This document shows positions 7,736-10,618 of a DNA stretch of 55,690 bases, in pieces; position 1 is the stretch's first letter; the number at the start of each line of letters is the position of its first letter. A program made the position numbers and the translations under genes. This stretch comes from an uncultured Candidatus Saccharibacteria bacterium (GTDB lineage Bacteria > Patescibacteriota > Saccharimonadia > Saccharimonadales > CAZNVG01): positions 1 through 55,690 of the forward strand of contig CAZNVG010000005.1 in assembly GCA_964576475.1 (NCBI GenBank), given 5' to 3'. The notes beneath the pieces are model-generated. The model was not told the DNA's origin, ran no database searches, and saw nothing but the letters and a program-made list of their open reading frames with translations.

Positions 7736-7792
7736 ATAAATACGGTCAAATGATCAGTTTATAAAGTTAAAGTCAGGTATGAGTGTGGGTCG

Positions 7793-7873
7793 GGGAGGGA
7801 TCGGGTGCGTGCTGGCCAAGGAGTCGAATCGTCGACGTATCCTTAGCGAGCCTTATAGCTCCCGATCCCTCCC
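7793..7873. terminator. 13-bp perfect inverted repeat downstream of the LAxTG gene
   Basis: GGGAGGGATCGGG (7793-7805) / CCCGATCCCTCCC (7861-7873). Confidence 0.5.
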
Positions 7874-7897
7874 AGCTGCGTTCCCCAGCCGCGATGT

Positions 7898-8614
7898 CTA
7901 CCGCTGACGCGGCGTGAAGTACTTGCGCACCAGCTTGTCGCGGTAGGCGAAGATCATCAGGCCGATGCCCAGGACGACGAGGAAGACGCCGAGGTAACCG
8001 AGGGGCTTGGATGCCTTGCCGGTGACGGCGAGCTGGTCACGACGCGGAGTCGTAGACGGCGCGACAGTCGTCGGCGTGACCTTGATGGTCGTCGTGGTGT
8101 CGAGCTTGATCGGCACCGTGGTGCTGGTCGTGCTCGTCGTCGACGGAGCTGCGGTGGTCGTCGTGGCCGGCACCGTGGTGCTGGTCGTGCTCGTCGTGCT
8201 GGTCGTCGACGGAATCGTCGTCGGCGGCGTTGACTCGCAGTTGATCGACTCGTAGCTGGCCTGACGCCCGAGCAGCTGACCCTGGTACTCGACCTCGAAC
8301 CCGATGACACCGCCGAGAATCGAAGTCTCGTTGGTGGTGATCGTGAAGGGGACGAGCTGACCAGGCATGATGACGCCGAGGCTCTTCTTCTCGAAGGGCG
8401 TGACTGCGTCGACCTCCATCTGCGCGTTCGGCTTGCCGATCTTCTCCGAGTTCTTGAAGTAGGACTCGATGATGACCTTGCCGTCGACGCACTTGCTCGT
8501 CGCCTGCTGGTAGGTGTCGCATGCACCCGCCACACCCGCGAGGATGAAGAGGGAGACTGCGGATGCCAACAGGATGAACGGCAATCGCTTGATGGTCTGC
8601 ATTGTGTTGCTCAT
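7898..8614 (-). CDS. GC-rich cell-surface protein with Thr-rich linker and LAxTG sortase-type sorting signal
   Basis: Signal peptide, small Cys-containing domain, TSTTSTT stalk, then LAVTG + hydrophobic TM (LGYLGVFLVVLGIGLMIFAY) + basic tail (RDKLVRKYFTPRQR). Confidence 0.85.
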   Translation of the reverse strand: MSNTMQTIKRLPFILLASAVSLFILAGVAGACDTYQQATSKCVDGKVIIESYFKNSEKIGKPNAQMEVDAVTPFEKKSLGVIMPGQLVPFTITTNETSILGGVIGFEVEYQGQLLGRQASYESINCESTPPTTIPSTTSTTSTTSTTVPATTTTAAPSTTSTTSTTVPIKLDTTTTIKVTPTTVAPSTTPRRDQLAVTGKASKPLGYLGVFLVVLGIGLMIFAYRDKLVRKYFTPRQR

Positions 8615-8689: not shown

Positions 8690-8743
8690 GGTACGGTACC
8701 CGTACAGCTTGCGAATGTTCGTAAACTCTACGGGTACCGTACC
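8690..8743. repeat. 15-bp perfect inverted repeat / long hairpin upstream of the LAxTG gene
   Basis: GGTACGGTACCCGTA (8690-8704) / TACGGGTACCGTACC (8729-8743). Inner pairing TTGCGAA/TTCGTAA. Confidence 0.8.
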
Positions 8744-8799
8744 TTCACTTTTCATACCTGACTTGTTAAGGTTCGTTCTGCTCCTAGAGAAAACTCTAG

Positions 8800-8959
8800 A
8801 AAAACAAAACCTCCGAGATCGCTTAGTGGAGCGGACCGGAGGTATGGACAATAAACATATTGCATCCTCGGTTTCGCTACTGACTCCCCGATTGCCCAAG
8901 CGACCAAATACAGGCAAAAGGATCATAGTCCGGATGGTTCTCTCACAATAAGATAACCA
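8800..8959 (-). ncRNA. Putative structured RNA / riboswitch-like leader, copy 1
   Basis: Promoter (8966-8994), then the 77-nt conserved multi-stem element (8939-8863), then hairpin ACCTCCG/CGGAGGT (8809-8843) with a U-tract on the minus strand. Confidence 0.55.
8863..8939. repeat. 77-bp exact direct repeat, copy 1
   Basis: CATCCTCGGTTTCGCTACTGACTCCCCGATTGCCCAAGCGACCAAATACAGGCAAAAGGATCATAGTCCGGATGGTT is identical at 8863-8939 and 9229-9305. Confidence 0.97.
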
Positions 8960-8965
8960 ACCGAC

Positions 8966-8994
8966 ATATTACAACAAAATATCATAAAAGTCAA
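8966..8994 (-). promoter_or_regulatory. sigma70 promoter for RNA copy 1
   Basis: Minus strand TTGACT (8994-8989), 17 nt, TAATAT (8971-8966). Confidence 0.65.
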
Positions 8995-9003
8995 TATTAT
9001 GTA

Positions 9004-9107
9004 TGCTATAATACATATAAGCCAACAGTAGTAGATACGTAAATAGGACCCGTACTAGCTACCTCAAGCGGTCTCTTGAGGTAGCTCATGCGAGCCCTAT
9101 TCTTTTT
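9004..9107 (+). ncRNA. Possible ~90-nt small RNA with extended -10 promoter and intrinsic terminator
   Basis: TGcTATAAT at 9004-9012. 12-bp perfect stem AGCTACCTCAAG/CTTGAGGTAGCT (9057-9086) inside ATAGG/CCTAT, followed by TCTTTTT (9101-9107). No ORF. Confidence 0.4.
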
Positions 9108-9170
9108 ACAGAGGTAGATAGCACTAGCGGTAGCGGGTTGAATGGACCGTACAACCCTAGCCGTAGAGTC

Positions 9171-9316
9171 AAAAAAACCTCTGATCTGGCCACTTATGGA
9201 GCGCAAAACAGAGGTAGACATAGAGATCCATCCTCGGTTTCGCTACTGACTCCCCGATTGCCCAAGCGACCAAATACAGGCAAAAGGATCATAGTCCGGA
9301 TGGTTTGTAATAAACC
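9171..9316 (-). ncRNA. Putative structured RNA / riboswitch-like leader, copy 2
   Basis: Promoter (9323-9351), then the same 77-nt element (9305-9229), then hairpin ACCTCTG/CAGAGGT (9177-9215) with a U-tract on the minus strand. The stem covaries with copy 1. Confidence 0.55.
9229..9305. repeat. 77-bp exact direct repeat, copy 2
   Basis: Identical to 8863-8939. Confidence 0.97.
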
Positions 9317-9322
9317 GAACTT

Positions 9323-9351
9323 ACAATAAACTACTTACAATAATCTGTCAA
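9323..9351 (-). promoter_or_regulatory. sigma70 promoter for RNA copy 2
   Basis: Minus strand TTGACA (9351-9346), 17 nt, TATTGT (9328-9323). Confidence 0.55.
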
Positions 9352-9388
9352 TACTACTTTAACAATAGGCAGTTGTTATACTAAGCAC

Positions 9389-10618
9389 ATGCCAGATACT
9401 ACATCACCAATTGACCAGCAACCATCGACAGATGAGACTTCGGAGACTGCAGTCAAACAGCCAGCGGGCAGATCGAAACGTAAGTTTTTCGTAGCCGGTG
9501 TTGTACTCATTATTGTACTGATCGTAGCCTCGGCTGGGGCCGTAATTATAACCCGCAGGAGCAACGAAACTACTCATTCTTCACTCAAGGCACTAGATTC
9601 AAATGACGCACAAGAAGTATTTGAATTAATAACAGCGAACAAGTGGTGTACGGGTATTACCAATGAGGAGTTTGGAGATCATACCGATACTGCTTACATG
9701 CCAGACGGTAGCTATCTGCAACAAAGCTACTCTGACTATCCAATAGAGCCTGTGAATCTGCAGTGGACGCTAGCTCCAGGCGAGAATCGTGAATGGTACA
9801 TAGTGCTTAGCGACGGAACACGAACTAAAGTTGAGATCGATTCTGCTCAGAATCTTTTCGGCCTAAATAAGTGCGAAAAGATACAGAACAAAGGATATAG
9901 CGCTCGCAGTCTTCCTACGATCGAACCGTCAGACATTCAAAAAAATTTGATGGTAAAACTGCAGAGTACAAAATGGATGAGAACTGATTCGTTTGACACC
10001 GAAAGAGAGCCGATGACAATGGTGTTCGGCGATTCTTATGTCGCGACGGCGACATACAGGAATGAGTCTTGTGTGAATAAGGGCTACTGGTATGTACGGA
10101 ACAATCAGATCGCAGTAAAATTTAATCCCGATAACTGTGACCCAAGAGATAACACAGACACAGCGGACTTTGTGTTTATGTTTGATAGCACAGGAAGGCT
10201 CGTTGAGGACTCGGAAGTCTTGTTTGTGGCGGAGAAGGATTACAATTCATCAAAGTCGACTTTCAGAATGTTTGGAAATGAAGAAATTGAGGTAGAAATT
10301 ACGGTGCCGGCTCCGCTGTTGCTCGATACGGAACAAAAAGCAAAGGTGCGTGTGACCAATAACGTTGCGAAATACAGACAGCAGAAGAGAAGTCTGCGAG
10401 TTACTTCGTTTGGTGTTTCAGATAGTCCTCGGATGAGCGGCGTAATGTCAGATGAGAAAGTCCAGGGTGTCGCGATAGATAAGGGTGAGTCGTATGATTT
10501 TGAAACCACAATTCGTATAGACAGTCAGAAGCTAAAATCAAAACAAGTATACTTTAACCTTTCGGTAGAGATTGATGGTTCGGAAGCTCAGGTAACTGAC
10601 TCAATTGGACTTCCGTGA
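9389..10618 (+). CDS. Membrane-anchored extracellular hypothetical protein
   Basis: 409-aa ORF, basic patch plus a single N-terminal TM (FFVAGVVLIIVLIVASAGAVII). Extended -10 TGtTATACT lies 6 nt before the ATG (leaderless). Confidence 0.8.
   Translation: MPDTTSPIDQQPSTDETSETAVKQPAGRSKRKFFVAGVVLIIVLIVASAGAVIITRRSNETTHSSLKALDSNDAQEVFELITANKWCTGITNEEFGDHTDTAYMPDGSYLQQSYSDYPIEPVNLQWTLAPGENREWYIVLSDGTRTKVEIDSAQNLFGLNKCEKIQNKGYSARSLPTIEPSDIQKNLMVKLQSTKWMRTDSFDTEREPMTMVFGDSYVATATYRNESCVNKGYWYVRNNQIAVKFNPDNCDPRDNTDTADFVFMFDSTGRLVEDSEVLFVAEKDYNSSKSTFRMFGNEEIEVEITVPAPLLLDTEQKAKVRVTNNVAKYRQQKRSLRVTSFGVSDSPRMSGVMSDEKVQGVAIDKGESYDFETTIRIDSQKLKSKQVYFNLSVEIDGSEAQVTDSIGLP

What the first reader, a model, noticed from the sequence alone, without database searches (positions are those of the whole stretch)
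8800..9351. Exactly duplicated 77-nt structured RNA, each copy with its own promoter and a covarying terminator: candidate new riboswitch or sRNA class
Seen: 8863-8939 and 9229-9305 are identical while the flanks diverge. On the minus strand each copy follows a 17-nt-spaced sigma70 promoter (TTGACT/TAATAT; TTGACA/TATTGT). The element folds as a multi-stem junction: CAUCC/GGAUG closing stem, GGA/UCC, UUGCCUG/UGGGCAA, and UCGG/CCGA around GGAGUCAGUAGCGAAA. Each copy is followed by a hairpin plus U-tract whose stems covary (ACCUCCG/CGGAGGU vs ACCUCUG/CAGAGGU) and whose loops share CGCUCCA. That loop could pair with GGAGU in the conserved core. Inference: promoter, conserved aptamer, then terminator is the layout of transcriptional riboswitches or standalone ~150-nt sRNAs. 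Copy 1 lies upstream of the LAxTG surface gene; copy 2 has no obvious gene and reads toward copy 1. I could not match it from memory to FMN, ZTP, c-di-GMP, c-di-AMP, T-box, yybP or raiA.
Basis: partly seen in the sequence, partly recalled or inferred. Interest (0 to 1): 0.85.

Follow-up and report, generated by a model that had tools for sequence, protein, structure and literature searches.

The report
Tandem c-di-GMP-II riboswitches, Saccharibacteria
The duplicated 77-nt RNA is not a new riboswitch class: it is two copies in a row of the known class-II c-di-GMP riboswitch, placed ahead of a cell-wall-anchored surface protein gene in a tiny symbiotic bacterium (Saccharibacteria).

Summary
Window 8863-8939 and 9229-9305 are identical, each copy follows a near-consensus promoter, and each is followed by a terminator with a compensatory stem change. 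Independent metagenome assemblies support a real two-copy repeat.

The interpretation as a new class does not hold. Both copies match the Rfam c-di-GMP-II clan over their full length: RF01786 at 51.5/48.7 bits (E about 1e-10) and RF03169 'GAG' at 43.6/40.5 bits. The residues that read the ligand in the solved structure (A69, A70, G73) are all kept. The 'GAG' resemblance rests on one pseudoknot pair (U-A instead of G-C), which covaries freely in canonical members.

A third, weaker copy sits directly ahead of the genome's only GGDEF cyclase. The same riboswitch-then-cyclase layout recurs in at least 18 related genomes.

Tandem c-di-GMP-II riboswitches ahead of surface-anchor genes are already published. 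Folding predicts an OFF switch, with the aptamer's 3' third pairing with the terminator's 5' arm when no ligand is bound. Characterised Clostridioides difficile class-II switches are ON.

Side observation: 20 of 51 riboswitch-bearing Saccharimonadales genomes have no detectable GGDEF gene.

The parts
9323..9351 (-). Promoter-like site of copy 2 (TTGACA-17-TATTGT)
   Evidence: It lies in the divergent intergenic region before the + strand gene that starts at 9389. Not shown to be active.
9223..9308 (-). Riboswitch aptamer copy 2 (c-di-GMP-II type). The identical core is 9229-9305. P1 is CCAUCC/GGAUGG. Pocket residues are A9239 (A69), A9238 (A70) and G9235 (G73).
   Evidence: RF03169 43.6 bits and RF01786 51.5 bits (E 2.3e-10), full length.
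9171..9215 (-). Intrinsic terminator of copy 2 (ACCUCUG ... CAGAGGU + U7). Its 5' arm and loop also form the 3' half of the predicted antiterminator.
   Evidence: Sequence; constrained and stepwise folds.
9042..9101 (-). Long hairpin (27-nt arms, 81% complementary) in the spacer between the two riboswitch units; function unknown
   Evidence: I2.
8966..8994 (-). Promoter-like site of copy 1 (TTGACT-17-TAATAT), homologous to the promoter of copy 2
8857..8942 (-). Riboswitch aptamer copy 1. The identical core is 8863-8939. P1 is C8936-C8932 with G8867-G8863. P2 is G8930-C8928 with G8884-C8882. P3 is 8921-8913 with 8896-8888. The pseudoknot is U8903-U8899 with A8878-A8874. Pocket residues are A8873 (A69), A8872 (A70) and G8869 (G73).
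   Evidence: RF03169 40.5 bits and RF01786 48.7 bits (E 1.4e-9). The structure is supported by covariation in 96 relatives.
8800..8843 (-). Intrinsic terminator of copy 1 (ACCUCCG ... CGGAGGU + UUUUGUUUUU). Positions 8849-8825 also pair with aptamer 8881-8862 in the predicted antiterminator.
   Evidence: Sequence; folds.
8752..8770 (-). Conserved leader motif TTAACAAGTCAGGTATG. It contains the 11-nt inverted repeat AAGTCAGGTAT, whose partner ATACCTGACTT lies at about 7769-7779.
   Evidence: The same pair, with a covarying base, flanks the homologous gene in G001:C20.
8690..8743 (-). Long hairpin in the leader between terminator and gene (26-nt arms, 88% complementary)
   Evidence: I1.
7898..8614 (-). 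Regulated gene: a 238-aa secreted protein with signal peptide, Thr/Ser/Pro-rich stalk, LAVTG motif, hydrophobic segment and basic tail (sortase-substrate layout). GC is 59-68% against 40-47% in the flanks.
   Evidence: No Pfam domain. Only one clear homologue, at 45% identity. Five sortase genes in the genome.

Best explanation
The element is a tandem pair of class-II c-di-GMP riboswitches (Rfam c-di-GMP-II, clan CL00127) in a Saccharimonadales (Candidatus Saccharibacteria) genome. Each unit has a promoter, an 86-nt aptamer and an intrinsic terminator. The aptamer is a three-way junction (P1-P2-P3) with a pseudoknot between the P3 loop and the 3' joining strand. Both units read toward one gene, which encodes an LAxTG sortase-type surface protein. 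The ligand is most likely c-di-GMP made by the genome's single GGDEF cyclase, whose own mRNA carries a third, weaker copy of the riboswitch. The predicted logic is OFF. Without ligand, the aptamer's 3' third (AGUAGCGAAACCGAGGAUG) pairs with the 5' arm and loop of the terminator and acts as an antiterminator, so RNA polymerase reads through. With ligand, that strand is held in P1, the pseudoknot and the binding pocket, so the terminator forms. Two switches in series would sharpen the response for transcripts that start at the upstream promoter. Shown here: family identity, structure with covariation, reality of the repeat, and association with GGDEF genes. Inferred: the ligand (about 0.8), the OFF polarity (about 0.65), promoter activity and read-through from copy 2 into copy 1. 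The confidence given is for the core claim, a tandem c-di-GMP-II-class riboswitch ahead of the surface-protein gene.
For: Identity:
- Both copies give full-length hits to RF03169 (43.6/40.5 bits, cut-off 40) and to RF01786 (51.5/48.7 bits, E 2e-10 and 1e-9).
- The closest orthologue, in the same family (G001:C16, same P1), scores 58.4 bits, above the RF01786 cut-off. In the first sample, 13 of 61 related genomes exceed the cut-off; in the second, 33 of 251 do.

Structure:
- On 96 relatives, 80% of cells pair, against 34-44% when partners are slid. The covariation score is 0.57 against at most 0.19.
- Pseudoknot pair 62-92 is U-A in 52 sequences and A-U in 41. Pair 66-88 is U-A in 65 and C-G in 28.

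Binding pocket:
- In structure 3Q3Z, A69 reads one guanine, A70 intercalates and G73 reads the other (PMC13715770).
- The window has GAAACCG, so A69, A70 and G73 are all kept.

Ligand source:
- The genome has one GGDEF gene, with the GGDEF motif intact, directly downstream of the third aptamer.
- The riboswitch-then-GGDEF layout recurs in at least 18 other genomes.

Polarity:
- Stepwise folds show the antiterminator as the lowest-energy fold before the terminator's 3' arm exists, in copy 1, copy 2 and orthologue L015.
- With the aptamer enforced, the terminator forms.
- The two copies reach this complementarity through different flank sequences.

Precedent:
- 59 doublets and 9 triplets of c-di-GMP-II riboswitches are published, mostly ahead of surface-anchor genes (PMC9481103).
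- C. difficile class-II riboswitches control sortase-anchored adhesins (PMC11477304).
Against: - Both window copies fall 2-5 bits short of the RF01786 gathering score. They pass only the cut-off of the 'GAG' variant model.
- No binding or transcription data exist. The metatranscriptome contigs are shallow, carry no strand, and one runs across the predicted promoter.
- For copy 1, the unconstrained minimum-energy fold of the full leader already contains the terminator. The OFF call therefore rests on folding order, not on equilibrium.
- Characterised class-II switches in C. difficile are ON switches.
- The third copy scores only 36 bits and its P2 is reduced to two pairs.
- The genome has no EAL, HD-GYP (HD_5) or PilZ match, so how the signal is removed is unknown.
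- 190 nt with a long hairpin and an inverted-repeat 'cassette' boundary lie between terminator 1 and the gene. The gene may therefore be a later arrival at this site.
Confidence: 0.88

Rival explanations
1. Same riboswitch class, but an ON switch as in Clostridioides difficile: c-di-GMP binding prevents termination and turns the surface protein on.
For: All characterised transcriptional class-II c-di-GMP riboswitches of C. difficile are ON, and they control sortase-anchored adhesins (PMC11477304). High c-di-GMP usually promotes adhesion. For copy 1 the free minimum-energy fold contains the terminator even without the aptamer.
Against: The terminator hairpin shares no nucleotides with the aptamer. 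Instead its 5' arm and loop are complementary to the aptamer's 3' third. This is the four-element layout of OFF switches. Enforcing the aptamer leaves the terminator intact.
Confidence: 0.3
2. A member of the c-di-GMP-II-GAG variant family (RF03169), whose ligand, as far as I recall, is not established. On this reading it senses something other than c-di-GMP.
For: RF03169 is the only Rfam model whose gathering score is reached. The U-A pseudoknot pair at position 68 is shared with that model's consensus.
Against: The defining change of that consensus, G in place of A69 (GAGACCG against GCAACCG), is absent; the window has GAAACCG. RF01786 scores 8 bits higher on the same stretch. The U-A or A-U pair is common in sequences that pass the RF01786 cut-off, and it occurs across several phyla. 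The element is linked to GGDEF genes.
Confidence: 0.05
3. One or both units, especially copy 2 which has no gene of its own, work mainly as stand-alone terminated small RNAs of about 150 nt. They could act in trans or as a c-di-GMP sink, or copy 2 could be a relic whose gene was lost.
For: Copy 2 has its own promoter and terminator. About 170 nt and a second promoter follow before copy 1. An OFF switch produces an abundant terminated leader when ligand is high.
Against: Tandem complete riboswitches of this class ahead of one gene are a published, common arrangement. Relatives show the same arrangement: G055:C18 has an internal promoter-like site, and G170, G177 and G221 have closely spaced pairs of hits. 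No trans target was sought or found.
Confidence: 0.1
4. A new riboswitch or sRNA class.
Against: Full-length covariance-model matches at E about 1e-10, with the family's junction, pseudoknot and pocket residues all present.
Confidence: 0.01
5. The duplication is an assembly artefact.
For: An exact 77-nt repeat in a short-read metagenome-assembled genome.
Against: In four independent runs the unique spacer contig is bounded by repeat sequence at both ends. In run X2 the repeat contig has about twice the depth of its neighbours. The flanks of the two copies are homologous but diverged, which a collapse or mis-join would not create.
Confidence: 0.02

Closest known systems
c-di-GMP-II riboswitch (Rfam RF01786; structure PDB 3Q3Z from Clostridium acetobutylicum)
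   Same: Three-way junction P1-P2-P3, a pseudoknot between the P3 loop and the 3' joining strand, the conserved UGG...CGC loop, and ...AACCG with A69, A70 and G73. Association with c-di-GMP genes and surface proteins.
   Different: Pseudoknot pair 68 is U-A instead of G-C. P1 is short (5-6 pairs). The unpaired nucleotide at the top of P1 is G opposite A rather than A opposite G. The score is 2-5 bits under the curated cut-off. The host is a Saccharibacterium rather than a Firmicute.
Tandem ('pseudo-cooperative') c-di-GMP-II riboswitches ahead of surface-anchor protein genes in Paraclostridium and relatives (PMC9481103)
   Same: Two complete riboswitches of the same class, each with its own expression platform, in series ahead of a cell-wall-anchored protein gene.
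   Different: The spacing here is wide (366 nt). Each unit also carries its own promoter-like site, so the gene may see one or two switches depending on where the transcript starts. The lineage is different.
C. difficile class-II c-di-GMP riboswitches ahead of CD2831 and CD3246 (sortase-anchored adhesins; PMC4591827, PMC11477304)
   Same: The same riboswitch class controlling a sortase substrate by transcription termination.
   Different: Those are ON switches. The platform here is predicted to be OFF. The regulated protein here has no recognisable adhesin domain.
c-di-GMP-II-GAG variant (Rfam RF03169)
   Same: Overall fold, and the U-A pair at pseudoknot position 68. The window passes this model's low cut-off.
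   Different: It lacks the variant's G at position 69. It scores higher with the canonical model.

Membership tests
c-di-GMP-II riboswitch (RF01786) | Covariance-model score at or above the curated gathering score (53.5 bits) | tested here: inconclusive
   The window copies score 51.5 and 48.7 bits (E 2.3e-10, 1.4e-9), just below the cut-off. Orthologue G001:C16 scores 58.4, and 33 of 251 related genomes exceed it.
c-di-GMP-II riboswitch (RF01786) | P1-P2-P3 three-way junction supported by covariation | tested here: met
   all 20 stem pairs show changes on both sides. 80% of cells pair, against 34-44% in the slid controls.
c-di-GMP-II riboswitch (RF01786) | Pseudoknot between the P3 loop and the 3' joining strand | tested here: met
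   UCGCU/AGCGA in the window. Across relatives, 99.4% of cells pair, with U-A/A-U and U-A/C-G exchanges at the two variable pairs.
c-di-GMP-II riboswitch (RF01786) | Ligand-contacting nucleotides A69, A70 and G73 (3Q3Z numbering) | tested here: met
   GAAACCG in all three copies. The AACCG columns are invariant in all 96 sequences, but this was fixed by the pattern used to collect them. The roles of the residues are taken from PMC13715770. The mapping onto the Rfam consensus is my inference from the A-A-x-x-G spacing.
c-di-GMP-II riboswitch (RF01786) | Binds c-di-GMP | not testable with these tools
   Indirect support only: the riboswitch lies directly ahead of GGDEF genes in this genome and in at least 18 others.
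c-di-GMP-II-GAG variant (RF03169) | Score at or above its gathering score (40 bits) | tested here: met
   43.6 and 40.5 bits.
c-di-GMP-II-GAG variant (RF03169) | G-A-G in place of G-C-A before ACCG, that is G at position 69 | tested here: not met
   The window has G-A-A. Only the middle position matches, and it is a compensated pseudoknot pair.
Tandem riboswitches with separate expression platforms | Two complete aptamer-plus-terminator units, same strand, no gene between them, ahead of one gene | tested here: met
   The only ORFs between the copies are short and overlap the RNA elements.
Tandem riboswitches with separate expression platforms | Both units lie on one transcript | not testable with these tools
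   The RNA contigs are too sparse and carry no strand.
Sortase substrate (LPXTG-type sorting signal) for the regulated protein | C-terminal LPXTG-like motif, hydrophobic segment and basic tail, with sortase present in the genome | tested here: met
   The C-terminus reads ...DQLAVTGKASKPLGYLGVFLVVLGIGLMIFAYRDKLVRKYFTPRQR. Five sortase genes pass the Pfam cut-off. The Pfam anchor model itself gave no hit.

The most novel reading that the evidence does not exclude
Saccharimonadales may run a minimal c-di-GMP circuit that is read only by RNA. It would consist of one small sensor-less cyclase under its own class-II riboswitch, with further riboswitch copies on surface-protein genes. This genome has no EAL, HD-GYP (HD_5) or PilZ match. 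About 40% of the riboswitch-bearing genomes (20 of 51, all at least 90% complete) have no GGDEF gene at all. In those genomes the riboswitch may sense c-di-GMP taken up from the host bacterium. That would make it a reader of a cross-species signal in an epibiont that, from my own knowledge of this group, scavenges nucleotides from its host.
Probability: 0.15. Interest if true: 0.75.

Novelty: new member of a known kind. Interest (0 to 1): 0.3.

Why it matters
For the finding as posed, the value is negative: a high-scored 'new riboswitch class' is an instance of a class described in 2010, in an arrangement (a tandem ahead of a surface anchor protein) already catalogued. What remains useful is the context. 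About a fifth of sampled Saccharimonadales genomes carry this riboswitch, often on the cyclase's own mRNA. The paper library held here has no paper describing c-di-GMP riboswitches in Saccharibacteria. These genomes of about 1 Mb may be a clean natural system for studying a c-di-GMP regulon read only by RNA. The predicted OFF polarity and the cyclase-less carriers are both testable.

Tried and rejected
- New class: rejected by Rfam.
- GAG-variant membership: rejected, because position 69 is A and the canonical model scores higher.
- Assembly artefact: rejected by the contig layout and depth in independent runs.
- Transcription evidence: two RNA-type runs and one run of unknown type hold only short, shallow contigs without strand. 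One contig (9189-9430) crosses the predicted promoter, so it may be DNA carry-over. Inconclusive.
- Papers: Weinberg et al. 2017 (the variant classes) and Smith et al. 2011 (the structure) are not held in the library. I used the Rfam consensus lines and PMC13715770 instead.
- Regulated protein: Pfam gave nothing, and the homologue search found one clear relative.
- Riboswitch presence against GGDEF presence across the order: no association (8 of 17 against 22 of 44). A lenient search found no hidden GGDEF in the nine negatives.
- The simple terminator scanner did not report the two terminators because their loops exceed its limit. I read them from the sequence and from the folds.

Full report
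**1. The observation**

On the + strand, 8863-8939 and 9229-9305 are a perfect 77-nt direct repeat. When the two units are aligned on the minus strand, the homology runs from the -35 box to the terminator tail. Outside the 77-mer it is only about 60-70%. Their number in the region is not above chance, so only their position counts in their favour.

Each copy is followed by a hairpin and a U-run. Copy 1 has ACCUCCG/CGGAGGU at 8843-8800 and copy 2 has ACCUCUG/CAGAGGU at 9215-9171. There is one compensatory exchange between the stems, and the loops share CGCUCCA.

The repeat is real. In Logan contigs of four runs from four studies (freshwater, activated sludge, wastewater), the region falls into flank-repeat, repeat-spacer-repeat and repeat-flank pieces. 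In run X2 the 77-mer is its own contig at 20.4x, against 11.2-12.6x for its neighbours.

**2. What it is**

A gathering-threshold Rfam scan of the whole window gives exactly two hits. Both are on the minus strand over the two copies, full length, to RF03169 c-di-GMP-II-GAG (43.6 and 40.5 bits, cut-off 40). In E-value mode the same stretches score higher with the parent family RF01786 c-di-GMP-II (51.5 and 48.7 bits, E 2.3e-10 and 1.4e-9, cut-off 53.5). The RNA therefore belongs to clan CL00127.

- P1 is CAUCC/GGAUG.
- P2 is GAC/GUC.
- P3 is CC..UUGCC/GGCAA..GG.
- There is a pseudoknot UCGCU/AGCGA between the P3 loop and the 3' joining strand.

**3. Canonical or 'GAG' variant?**

A 2026 structural paper restates the contacts in PDB 3Q3Z. 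A69 reads one guanine of c-di-GMP, A70 intercalates between the two bases, and G73 reads the other (PMC13715770). The A-A-x-x-G spacing places these residues on the AACCG of the Rfam consensus ...GUGCAACCG. That mapping is my inference.

The GAG consensus reads ...GGCGAGACCG, which puts G at position 69. The window reads ...AGCGAAACCG, so A69, A70 and G73 are all kept. Only position 68 differs from the canonical consensus (A for C), and the loop partner changes with it (U for G).

In 96 related sequences this pair is U-A in 52 and A-U in 41. The neighbouring outer pair is U-A in 65 and C-G in 28. The collecting pattern allowed these letters independently, so the co-occurrence is true covariation. 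Many sequences with the U-A or A-U pair pass the RF01786 cut-off. The flavour also occurs in Clostridia, Acidimicrobiia, Chloroflexota and other Patescibacteria.

The 'GAG' hit therefore reflects that model's low threshold, not membership of the variant.

**4. Covariation for the whole structure**

On the MAFFT alignment of 96 sequences, 80% of cells pair, against 34-44% when partners are slid by 1-3 columns. The covariation score is 0.57 against at most 0.19. No shuffle of 500 reaches the observed values.

**5. Organism and distribution**

These records are Candidatus Saccharibacteria, so the genome is in Saccharimonadales. It has 1.47 Mb, 135 contigs and 46% GC. The runs that hold the stretch are sludge, wastewater and freshwater metagenomes.

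RF01786 finds the riboswitch in 17 of 61 genomes, each from a different genus of the order. It finds it in 51 of 251 genomes that are at least 90% complete, with 33 over the cut-off.

**6. The circuit in this genome**

- A third, weaker aptamer (36.2 bits) lies at contig C30:8546-8618. It has its own TTGACA-17-TTATAT site.
- It sits about 50 nt ahead of the ATG of the only GGDEF gene in the genome. That gene encodes 236 aa, has the GGDEF motif intact and scores 105 bits against PF00990. It is divergent from rplJ.
- There is no match to EAL, HD_5 or PilZ.
- Comparing coordinates, a riboswitch lies directly ahead of the GGDEF gene in at least 18 other genomes. These are G001, G002, G052, G061, G072, G099, G102, G119, G144, G163, G174, G193, G205, G219, G235, G239 and G249, and probably G209.
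- This link is the best available evidence that the ligand is c-di-GMP.

**7. The regulated gene**

The first real gene downstream of copy 1 is 8614-7898. It encodes a 238-aa protein with a signal peptide, a Thr/Ser/Pro-rich stalk, LAVTG, a hydrophobic segment and a basic tail. The genome has five sortase genes. The protein has no Pfam domain and only one clear homologue.

In relatives, the genes behind these riboswitches are mostly secreted or anchored proteins. They include LAxTG, LPLTG and SpaA-like prealbumin-fold proteins.

**8. How it probably works**

Stepwise folding of growing transcripts gives the same picture for copy 1, copy 2 and orthologue G001:C16. Once the terminator's 5' arm is made, but before its 3' arm, the lowest-energy fold pairs the aptamer's 3' third with that arm and the loop.

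- Copy 1 pairs AGU/ACU, AGCG/CGCU, ACCG/CGGU, AGG/CCU and AUG/CAU, plus an apical CAAUA/UAUUG.
- Copy 2 pairs GGAGU/GCUCC, GCGAAAC/GUUUUGC, GAGG/CCUC and UGGAU/GUCUA.

The two copies have identical aptamers but different flanks, and both flanks preserve this complementarity. When the aptamer helices are enforced and the joining strand is blocked, the terminator forms. This is the four-element layout of an OFF switch: ligand leads to P1, then to the terminator.

I put about 65% on OFF. For copy 1 the unconstrained full-length fold also contains the terminator, so the argument depends on folding order. The characterised C. difficile class-II switches are ON (PMC11477304).

For the cyclase leader, the folds suggest that CCGAG of the aptamer competes with a CCUC/GAGG hairpin that covers the ribosome-binding site. 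This would give negative feedback. The helices are short, so this is weak.

**9. The tandem**

Copy 2 has no gene of its own. Its terminator is followed by 70 nt, a 60-nt hairpin (9101-9042) and then the promoter of copy 1. Transcripts from the upstream start would have to pass two switches, and transcripts from the downstream start only one.

Tandem c-di-GMP-II riboswitches with separate platforms are catalogued as 59 doublets and 9 triplets, mostly ahead of surface anchor genes (PMC9481103). Relatives show similar pairs. G055:C18 has an internal TTGACA...TAAAAT site, and G170, G177 and G221 have pairs of hits 160-210 nt apart.

The perfect identity of the 77-mer beside diverged flanks fits strong constraint on the aptamer. 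The G002 orthologue differs from it at only three positions, while its platform is barely alignable. Gene conversion may add to the identity, but I cannot separate the two.

**10. Verdict**

This is a new member of a known kind, of modest interest.

The more interesting points lie outside the finding. One is the minimal circuit read only by RNA. The other is that 20 of 51 riboswitch-bearing genomes have no GGDEF match, nine of them checked even at E up to 10.

Noticed in passing
Related genomes G007, G021, G027, G042, G045, G048, G053, G056, G074, G078, G093, G110, G126, G129, G130, G140, G153, G160, G170, G225: Twenty of 51 Saccharimonadales genomes (all at least 90% complete) carry c-di-GMP-II riboswitches but have no GGDEF match; many of these riboswitches score above the Rfam cut-off. 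Eight were searched at E up to 10 and twelve at E up to 0.01. Across the first 61 genomes, riboswitch presence and GGDEF presence are not associated (8 of 17 against 22 of 44). The source of the ligand in these genomes is unexplained; host-derived c-di-GMP is one idea.
   Followed up: partly
Own genome contig C30:8546-8618 (-) and C30:7787-8495 (-): A third, weaker c-di-GMP-II aptamer (36 bits, P2 reduced to two pairs) lies directly ahead of the genome's only GGDEF gene (236 aa), which is divergent from rplJ. The genome has no EAL, HD_5 or PilZ match.
   Followed up: partly
window 8752-8770 and 7766-7780; L022 (G001:C20) 1405-1420 and 2533-2546 in riboswitch orientation: The surface-protein gene is bracketed by the 11-nt inverted repeat AAGTCAGGTAT / ATACCTGACTT, next to TTAAC/TAAC. 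The homologous gene in G001 is bracketed by AAGTCAGGCAT / ATGCCTGACTT, so one base has covaried. TTAACAAGTCAG also follows the riboswitch terminator in G021:C14.
   Followed up: partly
window 7800-8600: The regulated gene has 59-68% GC, against 40-47% in its flanks and 46% genome-wide. The genes behind the orthologous riboswitches in G001 and G002 are also GC-rich (about 70% in the first 100 coding bases shown). This could reflect foreign origin or the Thr/Pro/Ala-rich composition. Not resolved.
   Followed up: no
window 9042-9101 and 8690-8743: Each riboswitch unit is followed, about 65-70 nt after its terminator, by a long near-perfect hairpin (27-nt and 26-nt arms) of unrelated sequence. 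Leaders in G001, G002 and G021 also hold long hairpins at this place. Function unknown.
   Followed up: no
G055 (contigs C9, C17, C18, C21, C24): One genome of about 1 Mb in the order carries nine c-di-GMP-II riboswitch hits. They include a tandem (C18:72062-72144 and 72252-72335) with an internal promoter-like site ahead of a 466-aa secreted protein.
   Followed up: no
window 9189-9430: A 243-nt contig in a wastewater RNA-seq run covers copy 2, its predicted promoter and the start of the divergent gene, at low depth. It may be DNA carry-over or a longer transcript. The strand is unknown.
   Followed up: no
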